From Eledone cirrhosa (taxonomy: Eukaryota): a stretch of DNA of 64,000 nt. The DNA is taken from contig OZ024744.1 in assembly GCA_964016885.1 (NCBI GenBank), positions 38,502,001-38,566,000 on the forward strand, given 5' to 3'. Position numbers and translations under genes: made by a program. Positions within the stretch are counted from its first letter, which is position 1; each line of letters begins with the position of its first letter. The notes below the pieces were generated by a model that made no database searches, was not told the DNA's origin, and was given only the letters and a program-made list of their open reading frames with translations. Of the stretch, positions 8,345 through 64,000 are shown piece by piece.

Positions 8345-8672
8345 ATTCGACACGAGAGTGCAAGAGAAGGAGAGGGAGAAAATTAACCGATACCAGGACT
8401 TAAAGTGGGAGGTAAAAAGGATTTGGAACTGCCATGAAGTCAAAGTGGTCCCGATTGTCATAGGCGCACTAGGGACTATCTCAAAAAGTTTCCAGGGATG
8501 GTTAAAGAAAATTGACCCCGCCACGCTTTTTGGAACGCTTCAAAAAACATGCTTGCTGGGAACAGCAAGGACCCTCCGATACGTCCAGAATATCTGAGGC
8601 TGCAGGTAGTGGCTTGATATTCATTTCAACAAACTTTCCAGTTAACTAACATCAATGACTGAGACTCAAAGA
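8345..8672 (+). mobile_element. Dong/R4-like family D2, 3' fragment (RLE C-terminus + 3'UTR)
   Basis: FDTRVQEKEREKINRYQDL...VPIVIGALG; near-identical to 9795-10132 and 53952-54280; ends in TAA repeats. Confidence 0.85.
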
Positions 8673-8696
8673 ACAATAAAAATAATAATAATAAAT

Positions 8697-9737
8697 ATTT
8701 CTTTATTCGCCACAAGGGCTGACATCAAGAAAAACATTACAGACGGCACAGGACGGTACAGGACGGTACGATGTGCGTTTTGTGCGTGTAAATATTGTTA
8801 TTATTTATATAAGAAAAGAAAAAAAGACATAGAAACATATATATAAAAACAATAAAAATGAAAATTGAAACAATGAAAAATTCCCTGACCACCAGAGCAA
8901 GCGCCCTCTCTCAATTTTTCCATCACTCAAACTACAGACGTATATTCAGAGGACCCTTCTCGCTACATTCACCCACCTTTCAACAAACTTGCTAGAAGGC
9001 AGCACTTGTCTCTCCACCCTGATTTTCCTCTTCAAGTGAAACTTGAAAAAGTTAATTAGGGATTCGCCGAAGAGGAAAGTGTCTGTCTTTAACCCTTTCA
9101 ACCTTGTCCACCACACAATCTCTTTCGCCATGGCCACCAAGCAGATGAAAACCGCCTGCCCTTCCTCCTCGAATGAAGACGGCGAGACCATCTGCACAAT
9201 GGACTCAGTCGATAACCGGATCCGTCCTACACGTGACAGCAACTGTTCGACATAGCTCCACAAGTCAGCAATGCTCGGGCACTAATGAGTGCGTGCACGA
9301 CGGTTTCGTTGCTCTACGCGCATCTCAGACAGGCTCGGCTGACGGCACTTCCGTGCCTGTAGAGCTTATCTCGAACCGGCAGCGCTCCCCGGTAGCACTG
9401 CCAGGCCAGGGATTTTTGGAAGTTATCCATAGGCCCTGGGCTGAAAGTTCACCGGAAGAGAACAAACAGCTGATCTTCGACGCCCAGGAATTCTCCGAGA
9501 ACGTTGTCGCTCTTCCCCTCCACTAGTTCTCTATAGAACGCCGAGGTGGATGTTCCATCGATACTGGTGCCCAGCTGGCAGAGGGCAGTGAGCGCCTGGA
9601 GACATTCCAGTTTCCAAGCGCTGTCCCTTGATCTTTTTCTGACCCAGGACTGCATCTCCGTCAAGGAGATGAGCTGTGGGAAAAGGTGCCTGGCGAACGG
9701 CGACCACACCTGTTCAACGTCAAGGAAGCACCAGAGA
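8697..9737 (-). mobile_element. Tx1/L1-like LINE 3' fragment
   Basis: Closely similar to 3214-4310; same 3' end; bounded by AAT repeats. Confidence 0.88.
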
Positions 9738-9751
9738 TGATAATAATAATT

Positions 9752-10132
9752 ACAAGGAAAAATGATCGTGCCTGATTGTGGATGTGGCCTGCCTATTCGA
9801 CACGAGAGTGCAAGAGAAGGAGAGGGAGAAAATTAACCGATACCAGGACTTAAAGTGGGAGGTAAAAAGGATTTGGAACTGCCATGAAGTCAAAGTGATT
9901 TGGAACTGCCATGATTGTCATAGGCGCACTAGGTACTATCTCAAAGAGTTTCCAAGGATGGTTAAAGAAAATTGGCCCCGCCCCGCTTTTTGGAACACTT
10001 CAAAAGGCATGCTTGCTAGGAACAGCAAGAACCCTCCGATACGTCCTGAATATCTGAGGCTGCAGGTAGTGGCTTGATATTCATTTCAACAAACTTTCCA
10101 GTTAACTAACATCAATGACTGAGACTCAAAGA
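9752..10132 (+). mobile_element. Dong/R4-like family D2, 3' fragment
   Basis: DVACLFDTRVQEKERE; same 3'UTR as 8597-8672; small internal duplication of GATTTGGAACTGCCATGA. Confidence 0.85.
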
Positions 10133-10150
10133 ACAATAATAATAATAATA

Positions 10151-12862
10151 AAAACGAGAGGAAACAACACACAAGAAAGATCAGAACCTTGGTGGAAGAA
10201 ACGACCGAATGGTCAAATCAAGGAAATGAGAAAAGACATTGGAAAGCTTGAATCCCTACTGAATGGGACATTACAAAACATAGACACTAAAAATAGTTTG
10301 GAAATAAAGTACAAAATTAGGGGGGAAAAGCTAAATATTTTCATAGAGGAAGTGAAGCAACGCATTGTAGCAAAAAGTGCAAAGATTAGGCGGTATGAGA
10401 GCAGAGTCAGTCAGTATAGACAGAACCGCATGTTTGACAACAACCAGAAGATGCTGTTTGGACAGCTTGAAGGGAAAGAAAGAGGCAACGACTTGATCCC
10501 TGAGGCGGAACAGACTAAGACATTCTGGAAAGGAATATGGGAGCAGGATGTTGAACATAATAGTCAGGCAGTGTGGATTGAGACTGTTCAAAAGGAGATT
10601 AGTGAACAAGCACACCAACAACCTGTTTTTAGTATCACAGCTGAAACTCTTAAAAAACAGGCCAAAAAACTAACCAACTGGAAATCACCTGGCCCAGATG
10701 GTGTGCAGGCGTATTGGATAAAAAATATAACATCCCTCCACCCGAAACTTACAACCATGTTCAATGACTGCTTGATGTCAGGTGAGGTACCAGAGTGGTT
10801 GACAAAAGGTACCACAGTTCTGATAATGAAAGACCGAATCAAGGGTAATGATGTTACCAACTATAGACCTATCACATGTCTGTCCGTAATGTGGAAACTG
10901 TTGACAAGCATTATGTCTGAGGAAATCTACCATCACCTCCACATAAACAACTTGTTACCGGACGAACAGAAAGGATGCCGAAAGAAGTCCCGTGATACAA
11001 AGGACCAGTTACTTATTGATAAGATGGTAATGAGGAATTGCAAGAGGAGGCACACTGGTCATGCCATGGGATGGATAGATTACAAAAAGACATTCGACAT
11101 GGTACCTTATTCTTGGATAACCAAAAGCCTAGAGATCTTCAAGGTGGCAAACGACATCAGACAGCCATTAAGTAAAATTATGAAGTCCTGGGAAACAGAG
11201 CTAACATCAAGTAGAGAATCCTTGGGAGAAGTGAAGATCAAGAGAGGTATCTTCCAGGGAGATTAGTTTGTCCCCTTTGTTGTTTGTCCTTACCCTCATT
11301 CCCTCATCTCTCATATTGCGAAATGTGAAAGCAGGATACAAGCTGGGAAGAGGAAAGCTTACCATCAACCACCTCCTCTTCATAGACGATCTTAAACTCT
11401 TCGCGAAAAGCAGAAAGGAGTTGGATGTACTTGTTAACACTGTCCGTATTTTCAGCAAAGATGAATGGAATTGGGTGTTAATAAGCGTGGAGTCCTAGTG
11501 ATTGAACAGAATAATTGGATGTTAATAAACATGGAGTCCTAGTGATTGAACAGAAGCAATGGAATCCAGGCACCAACTGGTGAGATGATGAAGGAAATCG
11601 ACACTGACGAGGGCTGAAGTATTTGGGTATTCTGGAAGCAGATGACATCAATAACAATAAAATGAAGGAATTGATAAGATCTAAATACAGAAGGAGAGTA
11701 AAGAACATACTAAAATCACATCTAAATAGTAGGAATATCATAAGTGCAGTAAATTCTCGAGCTTTGTCTATTATTATTTACAGTGCAGGAATTCTGAAAT
11801 GGAATGTTACTGAACAAAAAGAAGTCGATAGAAAGACTAAAAAGTTAATGACTGCCTATAGCATCTACCTAAGGAGATCTGAAGGTGGAAGAGGTCTCCT
11901 CGGCATAGATGACTATGTTCAGATGGAGAAGAGCAGTCTGCACAAATATGCGTCTGAGAGTAGGGAGCCAATGCTCAAAGTTTATATTGAAGGAGAAGAC
12001 AATAGACCAGAGGATGTCCAAGGAGAAAGTAACAACAAAGAGGGAGAGCAACTTTCATGAAAAATCCCTTCATAGCACCTTTTTCTAGAAAACGGAATTC
12101 AGAGATCCACAGACATGAAACTGGTTAAAAAGAGGAGACTTTAAAAAAGCTACAGAAGGAATACTAATGGCTGCACAAGAACAGGCCCTCAGAACGAAGT
12201 GGGTGAAACACTATATTGACAGGGAGGAGGCTAGCTCACTGTGTAGGATCTGTGGAGAGAGAGAGAGAGGAGACTGTGGCTCACATTGTATCCGAGTGTA
12301 AACACCTAGCCCAGACTCACTATAAAGGCTGGAGACATGATGTGATAGGAAAGGTGACTCACTGGTATTTATACAAACTAAATAACTTACCACATTCTGA
12401 GAAGTGGTATGAGCATAAGCCAGAATCGGTGATAGAAAACGATCAGGTCAAGGTGCGATGGGATTTCAGGATACAGACAGACAAGAAATTAAAACACATT
12501 AGTCCTGACCTGGTGGTTTTTGACAAGGAAAAAAGATCATGCCTATTTACAGATGTAGCCTGCCCCTTTGACACAAGCCTGTAAGAAAAGGAGAAGGAGA
12601 AAGGTAACCGATACCAGGTTTAAAGTGGGAATGAAAAAGGATTTGGGATTGTCATAGGAGCACTTGGTACTATCTCAAGGAGTTTTCAGGGATAGTTAAA
12701 GAACATTAGTCCATCCCCCTTTTTTGGAACACTCCAAAAGGCATGCTTGCTGGGAATAGCAAGAACCCTCCGATACGTCCTGAATATTTGAGGCTGCAGG
12801 TAGTGGCTTGATGTTCATTTGGGCAAACTTTCCAGTTAAATAACATCAATGACTGAGACTCC
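10151..12862 (+). mobile_element. Dong/R4-like family D2, long degenerate RT-CCHC-RLE copy
   Basis: WKSPGPDG, YRPITCL, GIFQGD, FIDDLK, EGGRGL, zinc-knuckle remnant ETVAHIVSEC, PDLVV; stops and frameshifts; ~44-bp tandem duplication at 11476-11555. Confidence 0.9.
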
Positions 12863-12879
12863 AATAAAACAAAAATGAT

Positions 12880-13920
12880 TTATTTATTAATGGCCACAAG
12901 AGCCGAACACAGAGAACAATACAAAGGTGTGGTCAGTGGGGGTTTACATGCAATCGAGTAAAAATTTAACAAAACAAATAAGCAAAAAACCTATCAACAA
13001 CAGAATTCCTCAATGGGGGGAGGGAGTAACTACCCAGGGGTGACGTTATGAACCCCACAAATTCCAATCCACCCTCATCTCCAAGAGTACCTTAGGAGGC
13101 GCTCCTCTCTCCCCCCCCCATATTTTCAGCCTACAAATTGGGCCCATTCACAAGGGCTATTCCCGCAACAATCACCCACCTTTTAAAAACTGTTCGGGGA
13201 GGCAGGGGTGGGGGGCAATATTTTTCTCTCCAACCTCATCTTCTTTTCCAAGCGGAACTTGAAAAAGTTGACAATTGTTTGACCGAATAGGAATGTGTCT
13301 GTCTTCAGACTCTTCAATCGCGTCCACCACACAATCTCTTTCGCTACAGCTATCAGACAGAGGAGAACTGCCTGCTCTTCCCGGCCGTGGTGGGGCGATC
13401 TTCACTGTGTACACGGTCGATAACTGGATCCATCCTACACGTGACAATAGTTGTTCAATATAACTCCATAAGTCAGCAACACTCTGCCAATGGACGAGTG
13501 CGTGCAAAATTTTACGGTCTGTCTGTCTAGCGGGCTACGTCGCTGTCAGACGGCATGAACTTGCCCCTCCAGGTGCCGAGCTGCAAGCCCACCGACTTTT
13601 CCAGGTTTAGTTTCGTTCCTGTCAACTTTTCATATTCCTCCATAAGCCGACACAGACTTTCCCCGTCCCTGTTCGAGTGGGATGCCCTGCAACAGCTCTA
13701 ACTTCCACAGTAAAGGCTCGAGAGTCAATCCATACAGAAGGAAGGAGAGAGACAGAGCACCTTTGACGGACCAAGTGGGAGATCTGAAACGGTTCCGAAA
13801 GGTGATCATTAACTTTGACTATCCAGCAGATGCCACTGTGCATTGCAACGATCCAGCCTCAGAAAACGGGACCAAAGCCAGCTGCCTTGAGGACAGCCAC
13901 TATGTATCGATGGTCGAATT
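12880..13920 (-). mobile_element. Diverged, internally deleted Tx1/L1-like LINE fragment
   Basis: DLWSYIEQLLSRVG and KSVGLQLGTWRGK segments homologous to 3214-5852; 3' end CTTGTGGCCATTAATAAA. Confidence 0.75.
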
Positions 13921-14039
13921 CCTTCCAGGTCACACCATGACATCCTGTATGAAGAGGGACTTTTTTATCGACAGCTTCGGGCCCCAGTTTGGTGCGAAAC
14001 CCGCACTAAACGGGGGTGGGTTCCGCTAATGAGTGAACG

Positions 14040-16285
14040 AACTTTCCATTTGACATTTTGTTCGTGATCGCGCTTGACACGTGTATCGTGGCCATCTGGT
14101 GGCGATCTCCCGCCTCAGGCTTGTCCACACTCCCATGGCTGAAACACTAGCGAGTTCAATCGACCGATCGCTTGACTCGGGCGATCAACAGGACTGGACC
14201 AGACTGTTCAGTGTTTCCACTCTCGAACTCGGCATCCCGTTGGTGGGAAAGCCGACGGCGAGAGACGGATCTGGCCACTCCCTAGCTTCGTGGTTCAAGG
14301 GCAATGTCATCTCGTTTTGCGACCCTACACCTGCGAGCCTCTCGGCTCTCTCGTGCTGCCCACCAGTGCCAACACAACAACCCCAGTCCAGAAACTTCTC
14401 CGAGACAGAGTCAACCTCAAACTAATTGAGGGCAACGTTTCGGAGACTGTTTGTGTGCTGGCCTCAAGCGACACTGTACTCCGACCAACACCGGATGTTT
14501 TGTCAGCGCTCCACCTCAAATATCCGGACCCTATTGCTGACATCAGGGACGCTTCAGCCCCGGCCAGCAATGTCTCCCCGGAAGCGTCCAGCGAGGACAT
14601 GGAAGCTACCCTAAGATCTTTTCCTGGTAGCAACAGTGGTGGAGTAGACGGTTTGCGCCCAGTCACCTCCGAAACCTCATCTCATCTCATGCGGCGGAAG
14701 CAGGCTCCCGACTGCTCCAGTCTTAAACAGCCCTCACCCACTGTCTCCTCCGCGCCAACTTGCGCTGCCATGCCCGCGATCTTTTCTTCTCAGCGAACTT
14801 GACCATCCTGAGGATGAATGACGGAGGCGTCCGCTCCATCGCGGTGGCATGCTTCTCGGCTCTTCCATTTTTCGAAAGCCATAAGAGAATGCCTGGAGAC
14901 CAAGCACGCAGATTTGTCCCAATTAGCAGAAAGGCTGCGCCTCATTGACGCTCGCCTCACGCTCTTCCTCTTGAGGAACTGTTTTGTCCTTCCCATATTG
15001 ACATTCACGCTGCGCGGTGCACCTTGCCACCCCTACGCAGATCTTCTCGGGGAATTTGATGCCACCATTCGACGCTGTGCAGAACTCATCAGTAATGTCA
15101 GTTTCGACAGCGCTGGCTGGCAACAGGTGACACTCGCAGTGAGGTTCGGTGGCCTTGACCTCCAATCAGCTTCGGACCTAGCTTTACCTGCCTACCTGTC
15201 CTCTATCTCCTCCTGTCGCATTCTCGTCAGCGAGGCTGTCAGCCAGACGGCCGAACTTGACCTGCCCCTGAGATGGAACAGGCTCTGGCCTACTGGACAG
15301 GCGAAGGCCTCGCTATCCCCCTCTCTATACTACGGTCCAACGTAACTGGGGCGTCATCAATTGCAAGTCCTCAGTCAGAAAGATTATGTCTGGACAAACA
15401 CCACCACACCTGCCTCCGCTCCGCTTCCCAGCCCAACAGCGGCGCGTGGCTCAATTCGGCGCTCTCCTCATCAACCGATACCTTCTTGACGATGAGTGCA
15501 CTCGCATCGAAGTAGCCCAACGCCTTGGCCTCTGCATGTGTAATCCACATAAATGCCGCTGCGGGGCGGTTGTTGACAAGTTTGGCCTTCACTTTCTGTC
15601 TCGCCATCACAGCGCAAGCCGGTTCTCTCGAGACGCCGCACTCAACGACATATTGAGAAGAAGCATGGACGCAGCTGGCTTTCCATCTCAACTGGAGCCA
15701 GCAGGCCTAGAACACAGGGATAGCAAGCACCCCAACGGAATCACCCTCTTCCCATTCGAAGGAGGTAGATCCCTCATATGGGACGCCACCTGCTGCGACA
15801 CGTTCTCCGCCTCCAATTTTGTCGCTTCGGCTACAAACCCCGGCATCGCAGCCCGCCTCGCAGAAGAACGTGAAATAAACAAATACCGGGGCTTGTCCAG
15901 CCACTTCCTCTTCACACCAGTCACCGTCAAGACCTCAGGCGTACTTGGTCCCCGTAGTGCCGAGCGCCTCCGCAAGTTCGGAACGTCGGCGGTCAGTGTG
16001 AGGTTTGGGGGCTGCAGCGGGTGTTATTGGCCATCGGGCGGAGAGATGCTTTTGCCGTGATGTCAGCGGGACGCAGCACTTCTGCCCCCTTTCCCTAGGC
16101 CCAAAGCCCAATCACCCTCCCCCTTCACCCCTCCCTCTCTTCTACGACACCAGAGCTCTTACAATCGCCTCCCCTTCCCGATCTTTTTCTTCTTTCTTTC
16201 TCGCCTCTTTTATTTTTCTGTTTCCCTATTCTTTCTTTCCTTCTGTTTCCCCGTTCTTTTTTATTATTTCTATATTGAAAATAAA
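14040..16285 (+). mobile_element. CRE-clade-like RLE non-LTR retrotransposon, degenerate, with the RT core deleted
   Basis: GGVDGLRP, GGVRSIAV, RFGGL, SGAWL, CRCG...GLHFL, HPNG...LIWDATC...KY, and a pyrimidine-rich 3'UTR; no QGDP/YxDD region. Confidence 0.7.
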
Positions 16286-16733: not shown

Positions 16734-17027
16734 CCTTCCACGTTCAAATTCCGCTCTTTCGACTTTGCTTGTGTCTTGCGTTTTAAATTCATCTTTATCA
16801 GGGTCGATTAATGAAGTACCATACATATATATATATATATATATGTGCGTGTATGTGTATATATATATATATATATATACAAATACACGCACATATATAT
16901 ATATATATATATGGTACTTCATTAATCGACCCTGATAAAGATGAATTTAAATATATATATATATATGTATATATATATACATATATTATATATATATATA
17001 TATGTGCAGGTATATATATATATATAC

Positions 17028-17100: not shown

Positions 17101-17105
<5 letters not shown>

Positions 17106-17113
17106 ATAGAAGG

Positions 17114-17164
17114 AGCTTCTACAGGACTAGTACTGTTTCATTCAGATGAAATCTTCAGGAAGCT
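17114..17164 (-). ncRNA. Type I hammerhead ribozyme motif (mirror arm of palindrome)
   Basis: Exact reverse complement of 17161-17211. Confidence 0.65.
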
Positions 17165-17211
17165 TCCTGAAGATTTCATCTGAATGAAACAGTACTAGTC
17201 CTGTAGAAGCT
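17161..17211 (+). ncRNA. Type I hammerhead ribozyme motif
   Basis: AGCTTC-CTGAAGA-(T TTC ATCT GAA T)-GAAA-CAG TACTAGTC CTG-TA/GAAGCT: 6-bp stem I, stem III closes a GUA site; weak stem II with a U.U base. Confidence 0.65.
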
Positions 17212-17287
17212 CCTTCTATAAAATAAAAAAATTTTACTCTGCCATGTATTGAGTACCTTACTTACTGTGGTTATCCCCGACTCAACC

Positions 17288-20226: not shown

Positions 20227-20350
20227 CGTGTGTCTGTGTGTCTGTGTGTCTGTGTGTGCGCGCGCGCGCGTGTGTGCGTACGTGTGCTCATATTTCGCTG
20301 GATTGGACTAAAATAATGTAGTTTCTCTCGACACGAAACATATATATATA

Positions 20351-20510
20351 TAACGAAGGAAGTGTGGTAAGTAATCAGGTGGACCATAACGCACCAAAGT
20401 ACTCGATACTGGGTAGTAGAGTGGGTAATAGGGAAATAGTCAGGATCCCGACGGCTGAGCTAGGTGTCGAAACGGCCGGAGCTCAGCCGTCGGGGTCCTG
20501 ACTCTTTTCC

Positions 20511-20512
<2 letters not shown>
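20351..20512 (-). mobile_element. Fold-back hairpin + tail mini-element, family F (half-hammerhead)
   Basis: Arms 20429-20461/20480-20512; ~80-nt tail homologous to the other F copies; (TA)n on both flanks. Confidence 0.75.
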
Positions 20513-20549
<37 letters not shown>

Positions 20550-23023: not shown

Positions 23024-23134
23024 ACCCATGGAAGTCGGATATGATATAGGGTTTCATATTACTCACTCCAATACCCCAAGTATCGAGTACTCTGGTGGGT
23101 TATGATCCAGCTGGTTTTTACTACACCCTATCTT
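23018..23134 (+). mobile_element. Family F mini-element, mostly tail
   Basis: GTATCGAGTACTCTGGTGGGTTATG tail and a short remnant hairpin; (TA)n flanks. Confidence 0.6.
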
Positions 23135-25847: not shown

Positions 25848-26009
25848 ATAGGGTGTGGTAAAAATAGCTAGACCATAACCCACTAGAGTACTCGATACTT
25901 GGTGTAGTAGAATGTGGGTAATATGAAAAGATTCAGGACCCCGACGGCTAGATCCTATCCTAGCTGTCGAAGCAGTCGGAACTCAGCCGTCGGGGTCCTG
26001 AATCTTTTC

Positions 26010-26013
<4 letters not shown>
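25848..26013 (-). mobile_element. Family F fold-back mini-element
   Basis: Arms 25921-25949/25985-26013; tail on the left; (TA)n flanks. Confidence 0.75.
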
Positions 26014-26055: not shown

Positions 26056-26255
26056 ATAGGAAAGGAGTTAGAACCTCGACGGCAGAGTTCAAGCCGTCGA
26101 CAGCTATATTTCTGGAGTCCAGAAATAGCTGTCGTAATGGCTTGAGCTCTGCCGTCGAGGTTCTGACTCCTTTCCTATTACCCACTTTACCCCAAAGTAT
26201 CGAGTACTCTGGTGGGTTATGGTCCACCTGGTTCCTTACCACAATTCCTTCGTTA
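26056..26255 (+). mobile_element. Family F fold-back mini-element
   Basis: ~60-bp arms over 26056-26178; tail on the right; (TA)n flanks. Confidence 0.78.
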
Positions 26256-26753
26256 TATATATATATATATATATATATAATCCAGGACCTGCTAGTGATG
26301 GTTTGCCAGATAGGACGCAGGGAGCCAGAACCGATACCATAGTCCAACAGTACACCTTTAAGCGACACACTTTTGCTGTTTATGCAACAAAGCAAATACA
26401 GTCCCAACTTCACGAAGAACTTTAACCCCCCTCCCTACACACACAGCTATAGAAAGCCTCTAGAATCTATATAGTCACACGACATGCAAGACATAGCAAC
26501 CGAATTACCCTCAAAACCCTTACCCCCTGTCTTAAAACAAAAGAATACGTTCGATAATTTAGTCATAGAAAGACTCTCTCAAATAAGATCGGATGGCCAT
26601 GGCTGAAAAGCCTATAAGCATTTGGCCTGCTTCTTAAGGGCTTGCTTGTCTGGAACTATAAACAAGTATAATTTTATGCTGCCTCGATTCATGAATATTT
26701 TGAATGTCCGTCTATGTACACGTCAGTGTATGTTTATTTATTAACATACTCTA

Positions 26754-36799: not shown

Positions 36800-37180
36800 C
36801 CAAATAACAGTAAAAACATCAAATTTTATGATTTGTAGTAATCTTATTCTTTGTTCATTTATTCATTTCTAACAACATTTACTTTGTAGGGTTAATAAGC
36901 CGAATAGAGGGGTTGTTCGGGAAATTGGATTTGTGAGCCTTCAGGGTAAAGTGGGGGAGAAATAGGGTCGAGAGGTTCAGTCCGGTTCAGGATTTTGAGA
37001 TCAGAGGTGATTTTAAACCCAGCATCGTTGATGTCATTAATGACACTCCGGTTAGTTTTACGGTAATCCTTAGTTACAGCATTATGTAACAGTTGATGGT
37101 AAGTACTGCGCTCCACTTGATATAGATTGCCAGTTTTATCGGAGTGGACGTGCGCGGCATTAGAATCCTTAACATATAGA
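36800..37180 (-). mobile_element. Penelope-like RT N-terminal fragment
   Basis: SDKTGNLY and (after a frameshift) LKAHKSNFPNNPSIRLINP motifs. Confidence 0.6.
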
Positions 37181-37660
37181 TTTTTTTTTATATATATTTT
37201 TATGTGTGCTTGTATTTGCATAGCCATTGCGGGTGTTTCCGCGTATGCATGCGTATGTACGTATATGGATGCATGCATGTATATATTTAATTTTTGTTGA
37301 TTTGAATTACCTCCGTAATTTATTTACATTATTCTTAACTCTGAAGCCGAGAATCATTCCTAAATAGAATTTTCCTAAATAGTATTTTAGTCTACAACTT
37401 CAGTTATGCCATAAACGTGGTTTTGTCTTTGCGTGTAATTGATCTCAGCGCTACAAATAATGACGTATTATCTTCGTTTTTTTCCGTTCTTTGCCAGGGA
37501 ACGTTTCCACCAACCAAAGTATCGTCTTCCTGTCTTCCTTCGGTTGCAACTTTTTTTCGGAATTTATTTCTGCGTTCACAAATTGACTTTGTTAGTTTCA
37601 GAAGATCCCGTTAAGGGTGAAAGCAGCGATTCTTTGCTTAAACTTTAATCTTTTATTTTA

Positions 37661-38706: not shown

Positions 38707-38736
38707 ATATATATATATAATCTTTCTTTTTTAGCC

Positions 38737-41700
38737 ATGAACCTGGCAAAAGAAATAGAGAAAAACATTTTAGCCATCACCCAACACCATCCTTGCTGTC
38801 ACTAACACACAATCACAAAACAAGCCCCCTGCAACAGTCAAAACCAGCCACCACACTAGCCTCCACATTCTTACTCAATACACAAGGTATCAGCCCATAC
38901 ACCAATGCACAGAAATGGAAGATCCAATTCATTGAGGATTGGGTTGGTAACCATCCATTTCACATCCCCTTCCTCATTCTTACTGAAACCCACCTTGACA
39001 ACTCCCACTTGGAGACCGAAGTAAGAGTGAGAAATTTCACAACCATCCGTGCGAATCGTGTTGGCAGAAGGAAGGGTGGAACTGCCATTTTCCTGCATGA
39101 TTCCTTTACGGCAGATGGCAACACAACATTCTCTAATGGATACTGTGTATCAGTCACTGTGCACAATAAAGCCAATGACCTGACATTAGTTGGGCTCTAT
39201 AGGCCACCACAAACACCCATCATCTGTTTCAAAGAATGCCTCAACAGTATTAAATGCTTTATTAAACAGTGCCATTCTAGCAACATACTTTTGATGGGAG
39301 ACTTTAATCTACCCTGTGTCCATTGGTCTACATGTAGTTTGAAACCAGGCTCCACAGCCTCAACCACTGACAAATAGGCTGTCCAGTCACTTCTTGACTT
39401 CATGAATGAGTTTTTCTTGTCCCAACTTGTCCTTGCACCAACGAGGCATCAGGAGAACATTCTGGATCTAGTGTTTAGTAAGCACACTAACACTATACAT
39501 AATATTACAGTGGAAAAAAGCCTTCTCTCAGACCATGACATGGTTCTCTGTAACCTGAGATTCCACCAGCCGAAAGCTAATCCCAAGGTCCTCGATCCAT
39601 TTGATAACATGGATCTCCACAATGCCAAATGGGATGCAATTATGAACGAACTACCACATGTCGACTGGTCTTTTACACACGCACACACTTCCACCAACAT
39701 CAAAACATCTTGGCAGATCTTTGTAGACACTGTGACAAATATATGTACAAAACACACCCCACCAAAGCCTGTGAACAAAACCAAGTGCAGTATCCCCCAA
39801 AAAAGAAAAACAATTATCAGAAAAATAAAAAGTACAAACAAAAAAATTAACACACTAAAATACTGCCAACAGCAACACACACATTCAATGGCTATCACCC
39901 TGCTTGAGTCAAACAAATATAACCTCCAGCAATGCATGATGACCATCATCAATAACCAGAGAATATCTGAAGAGAGGTGGGCCATTGAGAAAATAAAACT
40001 CAACCCCAAAGTGTTCTTCTCATTCGCTAAAAAACACATGGTTACCGTCTCCACTGTTGGTCCCCTAGTTGATGAAAATGGCACACTCCAGGACAATGCC
40101 AAAACCATGGGCGAGATACTGCAGAAACAATACTGCTCTGTTTTCAGCAACTCTGATATGGCCGATCTGGGCCGTATCAGTGATATTAACCCCCAACACA
40201 CTATATCAGACATAACGTTTGGCGCCCCTGATGTCTTAGATGCAATAAACGAAATTAAATACAATTCAGCAGTAGACCCCGACAGGTTCCCTGCTTGTGT
40301 CCTGAAGGTATGTCGACACCAACTTGCAACTCCACTTGCTAATCTGTGGAGGAACTCACTGGACACTGGCTATATTCCTGAAAACTTTCTGTCCCAGTCC
40401 GTTGTCCCAGTCTTCAAAAAGAGAAATAAATCCCTTGCAGTGAACTACCGTCCGATCTCAATCACCTCTCATATTATCAAGGTATTTGAGAGGGTGGTGA
40501 GATCACGAATAACCCACTTTCTTGAAAGCAACGGCCTGCTGAACTCCAACCAACATTGATTCCGTAATGGAAAGGACTGCCTAACGCAGCTCCTGCATGA
40601 CTTTGACGATGCTTTGAGAGCCTTGGGAGAGGGCTCCAACACTGATGTCATCTACCTTTATTTCAGCAAGGCCTTCGACAGGGTTGATCATTAAATTTTA
40701 CTGAAAAAACTATCCAATGTTGGTGTCTCTGGAAGGTTACTACAGTGGATCAAATGTTTCCTGACAGGCAGAACCCAGCATGTTGTAGTCGAAGGAGTAA
40801 AATCAAGCCCTGCCAAAGTCAGCAGTGGCGTCCCACAAGGCACTGTGTTGGGCCCACTTCTTTTCATCATCTACATTAATGACATTACTGACATCATCAA
40901 ACACAGTAACATCAGAATCTTCGCAGATGATTCCAAGCTCCAAAGGGTCATCAATGAGGTGGGTGACCGGACTTGCCTTCAGTCAAACCTACTGGCTGTT
41001 ATCCAATGGGCAGAGATGAATAATATGCTGTTGAATGAGGATAAATTTGAACTAATCTACTTTGGAAAAAAAGGATGCCCTGAAACTACCATACTCTCTT
41101 CCTTCGGGTGAAACTCTAGTGGCTTCCAATAACATCAGAGACCTGGGAGTAACTGTGGACAACAATATAAGCTGGGCCACTCATATAAACAGCAAAGTTG
41201 ATATGACCCGCAGAATGTGTTCCTGGATTCTCAGAACTTTCCACTCGAGAGATATCCACACTGTTGTCCTTCTCTTCTCCACTTTTGCCCGACCCCACCT
41301 TGAATACTGTTGTCCACTGTAGTTACCCCACACGAAACAAAGTATCATGAAAGTTGAAACACCCCAAAAGTCAATTACAAAAAAGATAGTTGGCATGACA
41401 GACCCTGACTATTGGGGTCGATTAGAAAAGCTCAAACTTTATTTTCTTCAACGTCGCCGTGAGTGCTACATTATCTGTATGATGTGCAAAATATTCCATC
41501 AGCTTAGCCCAAATGATATTGGCATCACCTTTAGTGTACACCCAAGGCTTGGGCCCCGTCTATCCGCCCACGACAAAAATCGCACTCGCATCACATAACA
41601 ACAATACGGCACAATTATTTCACCTCAATTGGCCCTGCACTCTTTAACATTACACCAAAACACAACAAAGCAGAGACAGACCCCATCAAGTTCAAGAAGT

Positions 41701-41890: not shown

Positions 41891-41893
<3 letters not shown>
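38737..41893 (+). mobile_element. CR1/L2-group LINE ORF2 (APE + RT), near full ORF2, degenerate
   Basis: ILTETHL, YRPP, GDFNLP, LDLVF, SDH, NYRPISIT, FSKAFDRV, GVPQGTVLGP, FADD, RPHLEYC; ends in a TATCAAAGT tandem tail; flanked by (TA)n. Confidence 0.9.
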
Positions 41894-41950
<57 letters not shown>

Positions 41951-41954
<4 letters not shown>

Positions 41955-42136
41955 CGAGGGGAATGTGGTAAGGAACCAGGTGGACCATAACGCACCAAAG
42001 TACTCAATACTTAGGGTAGTAGAGTGGGTAATAGGAACAAGTAAGACCCCGACGGCTGAGCTCAAGCCGTTTCGACGGCTAGTCCAGAATTAGCCGTCGA
42101 AACGGCTTGAGCTCAGCCGTCGGAGTCTTACTTGTT

Positions 42137-42141
<5 letters not shown>
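41951..42141 (-). mobile_element. Family F fold-back mini-element (best-preserved copy)
   Basis: 51-bp arms 42031-42081/42091-42141 with 1 mismatch and a 9-nt loop; 80-nt tail; (TA)n on both sides. Confidence 0.8.
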
Positions 42142-42178
<37 letters not shown>

Positions 42179-42314
42179 AAAGTTAAACAAGGTTCAATGA
42201 ATAAATCAAAGAATGAGTTTTACAATAGATTGGAAGCACTCAATATATTGGTTTTCCAGAGTTATTAATATTAATTCAAAATATTAACAAAATAGATATT
42301 CTTGTGATCAAGTA

Positions 42315-42381
42315 TATTTTATTATACATATTTCAGAGGTACTGAGTTAAGTTCAACAGTACGCCCTCATCAGATAAAATA
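42315..42381 (-). ncRNA. Minimal type I hammerhead motif (left arm of inverted repeat)
   Basis: Reverse complement of 42431-42497 with one substitution. Confidence 0.7.
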
Positions 42382-42430
42382 TGACTGAATCTTAACCATC
42401 TACCATGTCAGGGTATGTCATGCATCATCT

Positions 42431-42497
42431 TATTTTATCTGATGAGGACGTACTGTTGAACTTAACTCAGTACCTCTGAAATATGTATAATAAAATA
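42431..42497 (+). ncRNA. Minimal type I hammerhead motif (right arm)
   Basis: TATTTTAT-CTGATGA-GGACGTACTG..CAGTACCTCT-GAAA-T ATGT A-TA/ATAAAATA. Confidence 0.7.
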
Positions 42498-42966
42498 TAC
42501 TTGATCACAAGAATATCTATTTTGTTAATATTTTGAATTAATATATATATATATATACAAATAAATGATCGAGAATCGGAATCTCGGCCCACGAAATAAC
42601 GAAACACAATCTTCGAAATGCATGGCAAAGGGCTCATTGGATAAACCAGAGCTATAACTATCGTTTAAATACCAACACATAGAGACAATGCTTAAAATCA
42701 TTCGCACAGCCGAAAAAACGACCAGGAAAATTCGGGTCATACAAATAATAAATTAATAAATTAAATGAATGAAAAATCTTACCCGGACCCGCTAGAAGGA
42801 TGTTAAATTCTAGCTTTTTGGGTTTCCGCGGTTCCTTAATCAATTACCGTCAGCCTACATAAAAAATATATCTGACTTCTGGCAAAAAGATGAACGAGGA
42901 AACCACTTTCTCAGCAGGCATTTCGTTCAAAAATACAGAGGCACCCGTTACTAAACGCACGTGGGG

Positions 42967-52969: not shown

Positions 52970-53917
52970 ACAGTTGCATTTATCTTGCTTTATGTTCCTA
53001 CGAGTTATCACCAAGTCACAACCAGTAACCTCAAGATACAACAAGGTCCACCATGTTCAAGAAAGAACATACATACACCCACATGCATCTTTAGGTGTTT
53101 AGACTGTTGATGTACTTATATTGACAGAATCTTCCTTAGTATATGGGCAGTTCCCATTAGTACTATCTTTTGTATTTCCCCAATACGCGGGTTTCCTGGG
53201 ATTTGCGATAAGTAATCATTAGACCCTTAGGTATCATTCCTAGAGCGCCTACAACCACTGGTATTGTTTTAGTTCTCAATTTCCACATTTTTCCAATTTC
53301 TATCTCCAGGTCCTTATACTTGCTCAATTTTTCAAATTTTTTTATAGGTACATTCTTGTTTATTGGAACGGACATATCAATTAGCAGGCATGCCCTCTTT
53401 TTAAAGTCCTTCAGTATTATATCAGGTCTATTTGCATCTATATTCCGGTTTGTTTGGATGCTAAAGTTCCACAAGATTGAGATGTGATCTTTTTCAAGTA
53501 TGGGAGGTGGTTGATGCTCCACCAATTCTTTTGATGGGGCAGGTTAAAATGCTTAAACATTATCCAATGTATGTATTGTGCAGCTCTGTCATGCCTGCTT
53601 AGGTATTCGGTTGGAGCTATAGGACTGCACATTGAAATTATATGCTCAATGGTCTCTGGTTGTTTTTTACATAAACGGCATAATGGGTGGCATCAGTTTT
53701 TTATTATGTTGGCTTGGTAATTTTTTGTTGGCAGACACTCATCTTGTGCTGATATAATCAGTCCTTCAGTCTCCGATTTCAGTCCAGAGGATGCCAACCA
53801 CTGATGGGTTAAAGTTTTGTCAACATCAGGATTGTTAGCCTTTTCTGGGCATTTTCCATACAGAGGCTTTTCTTGCTATTTCTTAGCCAGTTTCTGTAAC
53901 AGTTCTTTCTTTGCAGT
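52970..53917 (-). mobile_element. Dong/R4-like D1 3' fragment
   Basis: RPDIILKDF, EKLSKYKDL; (ATT)n on both sides. Confidence 0.88.
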
Positions 53918-53951
53918 TATTATTATTAATTATTATTATTATTATTATTAT

Positions 53952-55140
53952 TCTTTGAGTCTCAGTCATTGATGTTAGTTAACTGGAAAGTTTGTTGAAA
54001 TGAATATCAAGCCACTACCTGCAGCCTCAGATATTCAGGACGTATCGGAGGGTTCTTGCTGTTCCCAGCAAGCATGCCAATTGAAGTGTTCCAAAAAGAG
54101 GGGCGGGGCCAATTTTCTTTAACCATCCCTGGAAACTCTTTGTGATAGTACCTAGTGCGCCTATGACAATCGGGACCACTTTGACTTCATGGCAGTTACA
54201 AATCCTTTTTACCTCCCACTTTAAGTCCTGGTATCGGTTAATTTTCTCCCTCTCTTTCTCTTGCACTCTCGTGTCGAATGGGCAGGCCACATCCACAATC
54301 AGGCACGATCTTTTTTCCTTGTCAAAAACCACCAGGTCAAGTCTATTGTGTTCCAGTTTCTTGTCCGTCTGTATCCTAAAATCCCACAGCACCTTCACCT
54401 GATCGTTTTCTATCACCGACTCTGGCTTATGCTCATACCACTTCTCAGAATGTGGTAAATTGTTTACTTTGCATAGTGCCAGTGGATCACCCTGCCCATC
54501 ATATCATGTCTCCAGCCTTTATAGTGAGTCAGGGCTAGGTGTTTACACTCGGATACAATGTGAGCCACAGTCTCCTCTCTCTCTCCACAGATCCTGCACA
54601 GTGGGCTAGCCTCCTCCTTGTAAATATGGTGTTTCAGCCACTTCGTTTTGAGGGCCTGCTCTTGCGCAGCCATTAGCATTCCTTCTGTAGCCTTTTTAAG
54701 GTCTCCTCTTTTCAACCAGTTCCATGTCTGTGGATCTCTGAATTCAGTTTTCTCAAAGAAGGTACTATGAAGGGATTTTTCATGAAGGTTGCTCTTTCGC
54801 CTTGTTATTTCCTCCTTGGACATCCCCTGGTCTATTGTCCTCTCCTTCAGTACAGTTCTGAGTATTGGCTCCCTACTATCAGTCACGTATTTGTGTAGGT
54901 TGTTTTTCTCCGTCTGAACACAGTCCTCTATCCTGATAAGACCTCTTCCACCTTCAGATCTCCTTAAGTAGCGTCTATCAATCTCACTCCTCTTGTGGAA
55001 CATGTTGTAGATAGTCAATAGCTTCCTAGTCTTCCTATCCATTTCTTTTTGTTCAGTAACATTCCATTTCAGAATTCCCGCACTGTATCTCATAATAGAC
55101 ACAGCTCGGGAATTTACTGCACTTATGGCATTCCTACTGT

Positions 55141-55143
<3 letters not shown>
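53952..55143 (-). mobile_element. Dong/R4-like D2 3' portion (thumb, CCHC, RLE)
   Basis: EGGRGL, CRICGEREETVAHIVSEC, DVACPFD; (ATT)n on both sides. Confidence 0.9.
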
Positions 55144-55176
<33 letters not shown>

Positions 55177-55177
<1 letters not shown>

Positions 55178-55590
55178 GGGCGGTGGATTGACAGTATCGG
55201 TAGAGGGTCGGACGCCATGCTTTCCAGCATAGTTACGTCCCTTTACGATCTGAGTTCAAATCCCGCCGAGGTTGACTTTGCCTTTCATCCTTACGGGGTC
55301 GATAAAATAAAGTACCAGTAATGCACTGGGTAATTGCTGGCCTTGTGCCTAACGTAGAAACAATTATTATTATTATTGGTTTTGCAGTATCGGTAGAGCG
55401 CCGGACACCAAGCTTTACAGCATAGAGTTACTTCCCTTTAAATACTGAGTTCAAATCCCGCCGAGGTTAACTTTGCTTTTCATCCTTGCAGGGTCGATAA
55501 AATAAAGTACCAGTCATGCATTGGAGTCGATTTAATCGACTTTCCGTTCCCTTAAAATTGCTGGCCTAGTGCCTAAATCAGAAACCCTTA
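55177..55590 (+). mobile_element. Two tandem SINE S1 copies
   Basis: 55177-55363 and 55378-55588, separated by ATT repeats. Confidence 0.88.
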
Positions 55591-56210: not shown

Positions 56211-56212
<2 letters not shown>

Positions 56213-56386
56213 CGGCTCCAGCCGTTTTGATAGCTAGATCCGAACAGTCATTATCTAGCTGTCGAAACGGCCGGAGCTCAGTCGTCGGGTTCCTGAGTTT
56301 TTTCCTATTACCCACTCTACTACCCTAAGAATCGAGTACTCTGGTGCAATATGGTCCACCTGCTTTCTTGCCACATTTTCTTTGTT
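56211..56386 (+). mobile_element. Family F fold-back mini-element
   Basis: TAGCTGTC-GAAA-CGGC..GTCG-TC-GGGTTCC plus the F tail; (TA)n flanks. Confidence 0.72.
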
Positions 56387-56636
56387 ATATATATATATAT
56401 AGTAATAATAATAAATTTGAAGACTAAAATCCAAAGAGGGCTCGATATATATATATCGACACTCGATCGACTTTCGTCAAATCGGACCGAGGAAACAATG
56501 TTTCCGTTGGTCTTTCCAATTGCTAATACTATCTATCGGTCGCAACTCCAGGTAGAAGGAGCAAAGTGAAATAAAGTGTCTTGCTCAAGGGCATAACGCA
56601 TCGCCTGGTCCGGGAATCGAACTCACAACCTCACAA

Positions 56637-60311: not shown

Positions 60312-62147
60312 GGCCTGTTTGGATGGTTACCATGAAACGGTGTTGGCATAATGTATATTAAACTATATTTAATGCTGGTCTATATTTTTGAATAAACATA
60401 TTTTCCTTATTTATTCGTATTTGTTCTGTTGTATTGTCAGCGCAAAGATAAAATGGGAAGACTTGGAATTTGGTTGTCTCATTACTTGCGCATATGTCTA
60501 GATATGCACTTAGTGGTATCTGTCTCGTGGTTGGATCTCGTAATTGTTGCCGATGAACTATCATTCTGTTTCTGAGTGTGAGTTTAGTTTGTCCTATATA
60601 ATCTTCATTACATCCTTTACATTTAATAGCATAAAATAGATTTTTTGATGAGCAAATGAAGTGATTTTTTCCAGCAAAATTTTGTCCTGATTGAAATGTA
60701 TACGTGTTGCCTTTAATGAGGTGAGTGCAGGTTCCTCAGTTAGAGCTACCACATTTTTTGACAGTTGGTTGTGGGTTTGTGGTAGGTAATTTGGCATTGG
60801 TGAGTAATGTTTTCAGTGATTTCGGTTGTCTTTTGCTTTTGATTATTGTGTGTGTTTCAAGGTCTTTTTTCATTCTTGGGTCTTGTTTCAATAGTGGGAT
60901 GTTCTTGTGAATAGTGTTGTAAGCTTCCGCATTTCTTGGGTTGTGTGTTGAGATATATGATAGAATATAGGACGTACCTTGAATTTCTTTTTGTTTTCGT
61001 AATTCATCAATGCCTAATGCTTTAGCTCTTTCTATTCCATTATTTATTAGTAATTGTGGGTACTGTCTTTCGAGTAGAATTTCCTTTAATTCTTAAAGTC
61101 TTTTATTTCGCGTTTCATAATTGGAGACAATTGTGCAAATTCTTTTTGCTAGGTTAAAAGGAATGTTCGTCTTCGTGTGCTTTGGATGGTTGGGGGGTGA
61201 ATAGCAGGTATTGTTTGGAATTTGTTGGCTTATAGTGTATGTCAGTTTCAATATTTGTGTCTTTTTTTAAGATTAAGATGTCCAGAAATGGGAGTTGATC
61301 TTGGCTCTATTCCATTGTGAATTGGATGTGGTAATTGCTGCCGTTAATTAAATTGTTTAAATCATTTAGTTGGTTGAGTGTGTGGGACCAAAGAATGAGA
61401 CAATCATCCAAGTAGCGTTTCCAATTCTGTGATAAATATTTGTGGAAGTTCAATCTGTATTTTTATTTGGACTGTTCATATATCTGGACTACCAAGTATG
61501 CCATGACTAAGTTGGCATAAGTTGGAGCGGCTTTTGTACCTATTGTAGTCTCCGATACGTGCTTGTAGGTACTGCCGTCGAAATCAAAAAAGTTGTTCCG
61601 TAACATAAATTTTAATCCCTCGGTGATGAAGCTTTTTTCTGTTCTGTCAGGTATCTCATTGGGATATTTCTCTAGCCAGATTCCTATTGCTTCTAGTCCG
61701 TATTGGTGTGGGATCGTTGTGTAGAGATTCACTACATCGAAAGACACAATAATAGTGTCGTTGTTGACATGTTTGGGGAGGTGGTTTAAGAGGTCCAGAT
61801 CGTCTCTTACAAGGCTTGGTATGTGTTTGAGAATTGGTTTTAGTAGTATGTCTATAAAGTTGCTTAGTCTGTGTGTTTCTCATTGTGGGCCCGCTACAAT
61901 TGGTCTTAATTTAAAGTATGTGGGGTATTGTGTGTTCACGCAGGATGAGGTGGATTGTTTACAGACATCGTTAATTATTTTATACTTGTGGATCTTCGGA
62001 AGTCTGTAAAGGTTGCTGGTTTTGTATTCAAAATGTGTTAAATAATCGCGTTCCTTTTTAGTTAAGTCTTCCTGGTATCGACAAATGAATGTATTTAATC
62101 TGGTCGTCGTTTTTGATTGCTGGTACTTTTTTACTCTTTCATAGTAG
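58680..62147 (-). mobile_element. Penelope-like element (RT + GIY-YIG endonuclease, long 3' region), degenerate and 5'-truncated
   Basis: SFDVVNLYTTIP, GTKAAPTYANL, WKRYLDDC, LPFLD, IY.IKCKGC..DYIGQT..LRNR; ORF ends at 60358. Confidence 0.88.
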
Positions 62148-64000
62148 CGATAGGATTCTGGCTAGAGAAATATCCCAATAACCACATTCACAATGGAATA
62201 CAGCCAAGATCAACTCCCATTTCTGGACATCTTAATCTTAATAAAAGACACAAATATTGAAACTGACATACACTACAAACCAAGAGATTCCAAACATTAC
62301 CTGCTATTCACCTCCAACCATCCAAAGCACATGAAGACGAACATCCCTTTTAACCTAGCAAAAAGAATTTGCACAATTGTCCCCAATTATGAAACGCGAA
62401 ATAAAAGACTTTAAGAATTAAAGGAAATTCTACTCGAAAGACAGTACCCACCATTACTAATAAATAATGGAATAGAAAGGGCTAACGCAATAGGCATTGA
62501 TGAATTACGAAAACAGAAACAAATTCAAGGTACGTCCTATATTCTATCATATATCTCAACACACAACCCAAGAAATGCGGAAGCTTACAACACCATTCAC
62601 AAGAACATCCCACTATTGAAACAAGACCCAAGAATGAAAAAGGACCTTGAAACACACAAAATAATCAAAAGCAAAAGACAACCGAAATCACTGAAAACAT
62701 TACTCATCAATGCCAAATTACCTACCACAAACCCACAACAACTGTCAAAAAATGTGGTCGCTCTAACTGTGGAACCTGCACTCACCTCTTTGAAGGCAAC
62801 ACGTATACATTTCAATCAGGACACAATTTTGCTGTAAAAAAATCACTTCATTTGCTCATCAAAAAATCTACCATTAAATGTAAAGGATGCTATAAAGATT
62901 ATATAGGACAAACTAAACTCACACTCAGAAACAGAATGATAGTTCATCGACAACAATTACGAGATCCAACCACGAGACAGATACCACTAAGTGCATATCT
63001 AGACATATGCGCAAGTAATAAGACACCCAAATTCCAAGTTTTCCCATGTTATCTTTGTGCTGACAATACAACAGAATGAATACGAATAAATAAGGAAAAT
63101 ATGTTTATTCAAAAATATAGACCAGCATTAGATATAGTTTAATACACATTATGTTAACACCATAACATGCTAACCATCCAAACAGACACATACACACACA
63201 CACACATAACACCTTCTACTTTAGAAAATAAAATCTAGAACTAAACAACATACGTTAATACACCTTAACATACTAACCACACACCCACACACACATAACT
63301 CCCTCCCCCATTTCTACTAACCGAAGCATTTTCCGACACACACACACAAAAATATATATATATATTCTCTCCATCTTAACATACTAACCATACTCCCACA
63401 CACACATACACACACACACAAAACACCTATACACACACACACATAACTCCCGCCCCATTTCTACTAACGGAATCATTTTCCTACACACACGCACACACAA
63501 AATATATATATTCTTTCCATCTTAAAATAATAACCATACTCTCACACACACATACACACACACATAACACCCATACACACACAGCTCCCTCCCCCATTTC
63601 TACTAATAGAATCATCTACCTATACACACACTCACACACACACACACACAAGTACACAAATAAACATACATATCTCTAGTTTCTTTATTTCAATAGAAAG
63701 TCTGAATTCTGACACCCTAGCGCACCAGCCATATTCACTGAACCAGAACAATTCTCCCATCCCATTTTTCTTGACCATTTTCTTTTGTTTGACAGAAAAT
63801 TCTCTAAATGGCTAAAAATAAATTCCAAAATACGGGCGCGAAATTTAATGTACTTGTTCACGTGACAGTCATAATTTCATTTATAACCAATAAAATTACA
63901 TTTATTTTAAAAAAAGCCTTGGTGAGCCAACTTTTTTAAGGAAAAAGAAATTCAAACACTAACTGGTGCGAAAGCTGATGTGCTTATTCACGTGACTGCA
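62148..64000 (+). mobile_element. Inverted partial copy of the same Penelope-like element; runs off the window
   Basis: LPFLDILI, IPFNLAKRI, CKGCYKDYIGQT; reverse-complement homolog of ~59030-61330 lacking ~59337-59825. Confidence 0.88.

What the first reader, a model, noticed from the sequence alone, without database searches (positions are those of the whole stretch)
41951..42141. Family F: recurrent palindromic element that keeps only half a hammerhead and folds back at the ribozyme's own stems
Seen: copies at 20351, 25848, 26056, 41951 and 56211 (remnant at 23018) share an ~80-nt tail and the string TAGCYGTC-GAAA-CGGC(T)-loop-(A)GCCG-TC-GGGGTC, with some copies degenerate. That string matches stem II 3' strand, GAAA box, stem III, GUC site and stem I 3' strand. 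No copy has CUGANGA; its place is taken by the inverted arm, and the palindrome centre falls at the stem II loop (41951, 26056, 56211) or next to stem III. Arms match within a copy better than between copies (TAGGAACAAGTAAGAC vs TATGAAAAGATTCAGG vs TAGGAAAGGAGTTAGAAC), and loops differ. Inference: the hairpin is rebuilt at each insertion by cDNA snap-back priming on ribozyme stems, or the half-ribozyme is a substrate for a trans-acting CUGANGA strand.
Basis: partly seen in the sequence, partly recalled or inferred. Interest (0 to 1): 0.8.

Follow-up and report, generated by a model that had tools for sequence, protein, structure and literature searches.

The report
Double-primed retrotransposon stubs with half-ribozyme
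These hairpin-shaped repeats are short stubs of a Penelope-like jumping gene, present in over 30,000 copies, and their shape suggests that both ends of the cut chromosome likely each copied the element's RNA up to a likely transcription start inside its self-cutting RNA motif, which bears on the unsolved question of how this class of elements inserts.

Summary
It is the end of a Hydra-clade Penelope-like retrotransposon (at least 30,513 tail matches). Long copies carry the whole hammerhead with the known U3-A8 core (2,038 matches against 8 for CUGANGA) and an RT/GIY-YIG-type ORF. In 69 of 71 two-armed insertions exactly one arm has the 80-nt tail, and the tail-less arm is longer in 15 of 70, which simple snap-back cannot give. 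Both arms stop in loop II, not in the stems. The main stop, 41 nt before the cleavage site, is an initiator-like (T/C)AGT kept in diverged subfamilies; the untemplated base before it is G six times as often as A (5,781 against 959). Best reading: both cut ends prime reverse transcription at the two known PLE start sites, run off an RNA 5' end in loop II, and are joined head to head. The architecture is known; dual priming and a start site inside the ribozyme are inferred and untested on RNA.

The parts
41892..41953 (.). (TA)n target run, left flank
   Evidence: sequence; a TA run lies next to the tail end in 94 of 100 sampled copies
41954..42031 (-). PLE 'tail' (+21 to +100 from the hammerhead cleavage site): stretch between the two inferred RT start sites; in tandem copies it runs on into the ORF leader
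   Evidence: tail continues to the ATG in L257, L258, L260, L261; 30,513 exact matches to a 22-mer
42032..42081 (-). tailed arm, +20 to about -34: stem I 3' strand (42045-42050), cleavage site between 42051 and 42050, stem III with palindromic loop, GAAA (42070-42073), stem II 3' strand
   Evidence: structure from long copies
42081..42140 (+). tail-less inverted arm, from exactly -41 (the A of the initiator-like (T/C)AGT in loop II) to +20; about 7 nt longer at its 5' end than the tailed arm
   Evidence: same junction recurs on three subfamily backgrounds
42139..42175 (.). (TA)n target run, right flank
20350..20513 (-). older-subfamily copy; tailed arm starts near -12, tail-less arm reaches about -27
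25848..26010 (-). older-subfamily copy; tail-less arm reaches about -36; tailed arm lacks GAAA and stem III
26056..26256 (+). copy whose tailed arm starts at -41 with G before it (this G may come from the partner arm)
56211..56388 (+). older-subfamily copy; partner arm ends at -40, degenerate tailed arm starts at -41
23053..23125 (+). tail remnant

Best explanation
Family F consists of truncated head-to-head insertions of the end of a Hydra-clade Penelope-like retrotransposon, likely made when both ends of the cut (TA)n target prime reverse transcription, one at each of two start sites, and both cDNAs likely run off an RNA 5' end inside loop II of the hammerhead. SHOWN: the parent element (3.6-3.7 kb unit: pLTR with whole hammerhead, tail, ORF, long 3' UTR); two fixed outer ends (+20 and +100); one of each per insertion; either arm can be the longer; both arms stop mostly at -48..-35; excess G at -42. 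INFERRED: (1) the endonuclease cuts both strands in (TA)n; (2) one 3'-OH primes at +100, the other at +20, each at a TAT that can pair with the target; (3) the usual template begins at -41, most likely a capped Pol II start at an initiator-like (T/C)AGT, so it carries only the 3' half of the ribozyme, and the extra G is the copied cap; (4) the two cDNA ends are trimmed or filled and joined, giving the palindrome. The half-hammerhead is thus a by-product of where the RNA starts. Long and tandem copies need a second template class (read-through or circular RNA) or a jump from the RNA 5' end to the downstream pLTR. Odds by step: Hydra PLE stub 0.97; two RNA-templated cDNAs 0.8; capped start at -41 0.6.
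For: Parent; Hydra motifs read in natural ORF copies against Craig 2021 section 11. Whole hammerhead: stems I/II/III of 5, 1+6 and 6 pairs; constrained fold within 0.8-2.4 kcal/mol of the MFE in the 8 U3-A8 young-subfamily copies folded correctly; pair 3-8 covaries (UA 7, CG 3, UG 1, other 1 of 12) and one stem II pair changes on both sides. One-tail rule: 69 of 70 short partners tail-less in the tail-selected sample; 69 of 71 two-armed insertions in sets picked without regard to tail, 0 with two tails (83 insertions examined, 12 without a partner, 7 duplicate loci dropped). Long arms are tail-less in 15 of 30, so +20 is a real start. Tail-less arm longer by 8 nt or more in 15 of 70, tailed arm longer in 12 of 70. 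Stops: 70 of 97 tailed arms reach -35, 8 pass -60; on a second pass through the same sequence 0 of 10 stop there (Fisher P 3e-8), so loop II is no plain road-block. Base before A(-41): G 5,781, A 959, templated C/T 22,955; in 16 of 30 G loci read by eye the G cannot come from the partner (95% interval 34-72%); 7 of 7 sample arms ending exactly at -41 have G. (T/C)AGT at -41 in 12 of 14 long copies listed, including the older subfamily with an otherwise different loop II. In vitro, a Poseidon PLE cuts and extends both strands and starts RT at two sites that bound the tail (PMC11167929). An extra 5' G is read as cap copying in L1 insertions (PMC11702581). D. virilis Penelope has an internal promoter in its pLTR (PMC2377424).
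Against: No full-length copy starts at -41 (0 of 10), which a single mRNA from -41 would predict; a second template class or efficient jumping has to be added. G is also common before arms ending at -38 (5 of 8) and -40 (4 of 13), so the RT may add C to any finished cDNA, cap or not; 14 of 30 G loci are ambiguous. Stops spread over about 13 nt, and in the older subfamily many reach -50 to -56 (by eye). The same AG follows a pyrimidine tract and looks like a 3' splice site. Arms share minor variants more than chance (12 against 1.2 expected), which snap-back or arm-to-arm conversion would also give, though 95 variants are arm-private. Later asymmetric deletion at a palindrome centre could mimic a longer tail-less arm. 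Pfam and PDB searches gave no hit for this ORF itself; the profile comparison with the window's own GIY-YIG and RT fragments was weak (probability 17% and 4%). The initiator consensus is recalled. The sample is the first 100 exact tail matches on one contig (3 rows dropped), and inverted arms were sought within 190 nt only.
Confidence: 0.68

Rival explanations
1. Snap-back or self-priming: one cDNA stalls in the ribozyme, folds back on itself and copies itself to make the inverted arm (first reader; close to the self-priming proposal of Arkhipova 2013).
For: Predicts one tailed and one tail-less arm by itself; 12 of 70 junctions have 4 nt or more of overlap, some at stem III or at the ATTC/GAAT mini-stem in loop II; arms share minor variants (12 against 1.2); snap-back junctions are documented for R2 (PMC11371274) and proposed for PLEs (PMC3846280). 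Some palindromic fillers (L102, L204/205) look like local snap-back during joining.
Against: Tail-less arm longer in 15 of 70 and in the focal copy; long arms tail-less in 15 of 30; L064; mixed-subfamily arms in L112 and L114; extra C and G at both inner ends with 1-3 nt between them; 39 of 70 junctions have no overlap.
Confidence: 0.1
2. Two cDNAs as in the best explanation, but the stop in loop II is a structural or protein road-block, or a processed (spliced or cleaved) RNA end, not a transcription start.
For: Stops are spread; the -41 AG follows a pyrimidine tract like a 3' splice site, with CTAAY upstream in some subfamilies; PLEs often have an intron next to the hammerhead (PMC4209133); G also appears before -38.
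Against: 0 of 10 stop on the second pass and L257 runs through three hammerheads; no shared upstream exon or leader in the 30 G loci; a splice junction would cut after AG, but arms keep the AG.
Confidence: 0.17
3. The palindromic stub is an independent non-autonomous element (MITE, Helentron or SINE) that moves as a unit.
For: One junction recurs in many top hits; the stub would keep the putative start site and could be re-transcribed, which may explain minor variants shared by both arms.
Against: The recurrent junction sits on three subfamily backgrounds and centres vary widely in the unbiased sample; the tail is unpaired, so there are no terminal inverted repeats; arm lengths grade from 20 nt to full length into the PLE. 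Re-transcription of one arm would still use the mechanism above.
Confidence: 0.05

Closest known systems
Hydra-clade Penelope-like elements (Craig et al. 2021, PMC8557442)
   Same: Single ORF with C-terminal endonuclease, DKT, CxCX5C linker, CxxC and CxH, no CCHH, (TA)n targets, hammerhead in the pLTR; by-eye likeness to the Hydra proteins in the paper's supplement.
   Different: Unit 3.6-3.7 kb (published: under 3 kb); RWR for RWK; U3-A8 core, 6-bp stem III and 37-39-nt loop II (8 and 4 nt in the two supplement rows seen); 80-nt tail (published 30-40); over 30,000 copies, mostly stubs. An 11-mer of this hammerhead is absent from that supplement.
Inverted 5'-truncated pLTR with one-sided tail and palindromic junction (Arkhipova 2013, PMC3846280; Craig 2021 Fig. 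2)
   Same: Head-to-head arrangement, tail on one end only.
   Different: Published proposal is self-priming on an antisense template; the counts here point to two cDNAs made on a sense RNA with a fixed 5' end.
Poseidon PAc in vitro (Frangieh 2024, PMC11167929)
   Same: Two RT start sites bounding the tail; both target strands cut and extended; AT-rich target.
   Different: The parts read do not link this to the inverted junction, to a one-tail rule or to a cap; other clade.
PLE hammerheads with U3-A8 core (Cervera and de la Pena 2014, PMC4209133)
   Same: U3-A8 covariation; palindromic loop III; paired motifs on opposite strands at short distance.
   Different: Here stem III is long enough for a monomer, and most genomic copies hold only the 3' half.
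L1 twin priming; retroviral strong-stop DNA (both recalled; twin priming seen only as a reference and passages)
   Same: Second target end primes cDNA; short cDNA runs off a capped 5' end.
   Different: L1 twin-primed arms cover different parts of the RNA; here both arms copy the same stretch from two fixed starts.

Membership tests
Penelope-like element (EN+) | Single ORF with RT and C-terminal GIY-YIG endonuclease | tested here: met
   FD..S.Y, LYRDDG and VIYQC..YIGLT motifs in natural copies; 598 homologues, one with RVT_1 at E 2e-7 and one with GIY-YIG at E 0.012 among 32 scanned; no direct Pfam hit for this ORF
Penelope-like element (EN+) | Partial-tandem pLTRs | tested here: met
   L257 two units and three hammerheads; L258, L260, L261 pLTR-ORF-pLTR
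Penelope-like element (EN+) | Inverted 5'-truncated copy with tail at one end | tested here: met
Penelope-like element (EN+) | Hammerhead in the pLTR | tested here: met
   Rfam found no hammerhead in the window, where only halves lie
Hydra clade | RWK, DKT, CxCX5C, CxxC/CxH, no CCHH | tested here: met
   RWR, DKT, CNCPDRSSC, CNLC, CKH against section 11
Hydra clade | (TA)n target | tested here: met
   94 of 100
Hydra clade | Placement in an RT tree with named Hydra members | not tested
   reference sequences seen only as supplement text; compared by eye
Active hammerhead ribozyme | Self-cleavage after GUC | not testable with these tools
   17 of 20 A|GGGG loci are true stops at the site, several on both arms; 451 against 261 for the neighbouring position, whose control is itself mostly compatible with stops at the site; a pause at the foot of stem III would look the same
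MITE / Helentron | Terminal inverted repeats or fixed subterminal hairpin with fixed interior | tested here: not met
   unpaired tail, variable centre, continuum into the PLE
Non-LTR retrozyme | Head-to-tail tandem units, each with a whole type I hammerhead | tested here: not met
   stubs are head to head with half motifs; definition from bioRxiv 2026.07.22.740005

The most novel reading that the evidence does not exclude
This PLE starts transcription inside loop II of its own hammerhead, so every mRNA begins with a capped half-ribozyme that can be completed only by the upstream half carried in the 3' UTR of the same or another transcript: a natural split hammerhead that could decap, circularise or time the RNA. 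The tens of thousands of palindromes would be a fossil record of PLE 'strong-stop' cDNAs, one made from each target end on one RNA, and a jump of that cDNA to the downstream pLTR would be the missing route by which pLTRs and tandems are regenerated.
Probability: 0.22. Interest if true: 0.82.

Novelty: new variant of a known kind. Interest (0 to 1): 0.58.

Why it matters
How Penelope-like elements, the sister group of telomerase RT, build their tandem and inverted ends is stated to be open (Craig 2021; Schostak 2008: no obvious mechanism for pLTR regeneration). This family gives tens of thousands of short junctions with countable signatures (one tail per insertion, arm asymmetry, extra G at a fixed base) that separate dual priming on sense RNA from the published antisense self-priming idea, and it names an exact base for a CAGE or 5' RACE test and a 140-nt template for an in vitro test. 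It also suggests a reason for hammerheads in pLTRs beyond simple cis cleavage.

Tried and rejected
RNA evidence: no RNA holder listed (four rows of unknown kind from one study); no reads were laid, so expression and 5' ends are untested. Rfam scan of the window gave only sub-threshold microRNA-like hits on repeats. Pfam and PDB gave nothing for the ORF or its profile. Free folding of the region is not better than shuffles in a telling way (z -1.7 for the whole motif, -0.07 for the half); covariation over 12 related copies is modest (12 of 500 shuffles reach the score) and is not proof. In one search three of 14 copies (L073, L089, L160) were mis-anchored by my script and their energies are ignored; the three CUGANGA copies folded correctly (L162, L164, L166) lie 4.8-7.6 kcal/mol above their MFE. 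The cleavage-site control proved unclean, so in-vivo cleavage is not claimed. The tail classes's second table and the shared-variant count had faulty patterns and were replaced. Spliced-leader or exon-1 origin of the G: no common upstream sequence in 30 loci. Earlier findings of this scan: none returned. Literature searches for a prior description of dual priming, strong-stop or a start site inside a PLE hammerhead showed none, but the library lacks most subscription papers and Repbase notes, and I read only parts of each paper; bioRxiv supplements were not seen.

Full report
Observation. The copy at 41951-42141 is a ~60-bp inverted repeat plus an unpaired ~80-nt stretch between two (TA)n runs. 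The other five places match it. The window lies in a 3.0-Gb animal-type assembly rich in microsatellites; an exact 22-mer of the tail occurs 30,513 times, the reversed control 0 times. Positions below are counted from the hammerhead cleavage site (0 = first base after GUC).

Parent element. Three of the first 30 hits ran on past the palindrome centre. Following them gave a 3.6-3.7-kb unit: pLTR with hammerhead, tail, leader, ORF, long 3' UTR, in partial tandems. The ORF, read in natural copies with their own stops and shifts, shows the features that Craig et al. 2021 list for the Hydra clade (PMC8557442; passages, section 11 and supplement rows seen): RWR for RWK, DKT, CxCX5C, CxxC, CxH, no CCHH, and (TA)n targets (94 of 100). 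It has 598 homologues, mostly about 40% identical, but no direct Pfam or PDB hit; no tree was built.

The ribozyme. Long copies hold stem I, core, stem II, a 37-39-nt loop II, GAAA, a 6-bp stem III with palindromic loop, and GUC. The core is UUGANAA in 2,038 places and CUGANGA in 8; U3-A8 is a published PLE variant (PMC4209133, parts 1-2 of 4 read). Pair 3-8 covaries and one stem II pair is compensated in the older subfamily. So the family does not lack the upstream half; short copies simply end before it.

Two outer ends, one of each. Copies end at +20 or +100. In the first 100 tail matches on contig C1 (3 dropped), 70 have a short inverted partner and 69 of these are tail-less. In loci picked by inner motifs, 69 of 71 two-armed insertions have exactly one tail, 2 none, 0 two. 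Long arms are tail-less in 15 of 30, and L064 joins a short tailed arm to a 2.8-kb tail-less arm. Frangieh et al. 2024 (PMC11167929, parts 1-2 of 4 read) showed in vitro that a PLE cuts and extends both strands and that the tail lies between two RT start sites. The inverted copy with a one-sided tail is itself well known (PMC3846280, passages), with self-priming on an antisense template as the published proposal.

Inner ends. 59 of 97 tailed arms and 50 of 70 short partners end at -48..-35, in loop II; 70 tailed arms reach -35 and only 8 pass -60. The tail-less arm is longer by 8 nt or more in 15 of 70, the tailed arm in 12; 30 junctions have filler, 9 are blunt, 12 overlap by 4 nt or more. 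One cDNA folding back cannot supply both a tail on one arm and extra 5' sequence on the other; later deletion at the centre could, but not the mixed-subfamily arms of L112 and L114 nor the extra C and G at both inner ends of L082, L105 and L141. Arms are 0.94 alike within and 0.86 between copies but beat the best other copy in only 10 of 48; they share 12 minor variants against 1.2 expected and differ at 95. This fits a common source RNA or locus, or some conversion, followed by separate decay; I cannot tell these apart.

Why loop II. When long cDNAs pass the same sequence a second time, 0 of 10 stop there, so it is not a plain road-block. At -41 lies (T/C)AGT, like the invertebrate initiator (consensus recalled), in 12 of 14 long copies and at the same offset in the older subfamily whose loop II otherwise differs. 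The base before it is G in 5,781, A in 959 and templated C/T in 22,955 places. In 16 of 30 G loci the partner arm cannot supply the G (by eye); all 7 sample arms ending exactly at -41 have G. An extra G is taken as cap copying in L1 (PMC11702581, passages), and D. virilis Penelope has an internal pLTR promoter (PMC2377424, passages and section 15). Against: G is also frequent before -38 and -40, the stops are spread, the AG resembles a splice acceptor, and no full-length copy begins at -41, so a second template class or a jump is needed.

Cleavage site. 5 of 97 tailed arms end at 0 or +1; 17 of 20 loci with A before position 0 are true stops, several on both arms. The genome-wide ratio is only 451 to 261 with an unclean control, and a pause at stem III would look the same. 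Suggestive only.

Verdict. Family F is the stub form of a new Hydra-type PLE family. Its architecture is of a known kind; the counts favour dual target priming on a sense RNA with a fixed 5' end in loop II over snap-back at ribozyme stems (seen for R2, PMC11371274, passages). The start site and any split-ribozyme role are inferred from DNA alone. Seven literature searches showed no prior account of this, within a library that lacks most subscription papers. The retrozyme preprint 10.64898/2026.07.22.740005 was read in part 1 of 5. New variant of a known kind; interest 0.58.

Noticed in passing
window 42280-42520: A second palindrome right beside the focal copy, each arm with a whole CUGAUGA...GAAA hammerhead-like motif and minimal stem III; related pieces flank several loci (e.g. 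L019). Probably another PLE family with the same head-to-head habit.
   Followed up: partly
window 17105-17280: Third family: near-perfect palindrome with CUGAAGA...GAAA on both arms, centre just upstream of the core, and a tail on one arm only; seen also in L003, L009, L014, L019.
   Followed up: partly
window 17247, 20397, 41998, 42234: The tails of these different families share a TATTGAGYRCT-like motif (6 matches with one mismatch against 2.0 expected, 3 of 100 shuffles as high); a like motif is visible at the end of a published Hydra sequence. Candidate RT-binding signal.
   Followed up: partly
window 60358-63079 (-): Broken Penelope-type fragments of another clade: GIY-YIG (PF01541, E 1e-6) and weak RVT_1.
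   Followed up: partly
window 36892-37323 (-); L067: Fragment of a different Hydra-type ORF (…HSDKTGNLYQVERS…), matching the family seen next to L067.
   Followed up: no
L082, L095: Flanking sequence between TA runs is duplicated on both sides of the insertion (23 nt in L082), suggesting staggered nicks in two separate TA runs.
   Followed up: no
L083, L134, L077, L153, L154: Junction fillers of pure A or T runs (up to about 14 nt), suggesting untemplated A addition to cDNA ends.
   Followed up: no
L239/L240: Both arms start exactly at the cleavage site and are joined to pieces of the ORF's 5' part, as if the RT jumped template at that point.
   Followed up: no
window 16789-16944: Another short inverted repeat around a TA/CA-rich centre; only sub-threshold microRNA-like Rfam hits.
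   Followed up: no
window 71-16060, 38721-41111, 53163-55255: Many broken LINE fragments of several clades (APE endonuclease and RT pieces by eye); the window is nearly all repeats.
   Followed up: no
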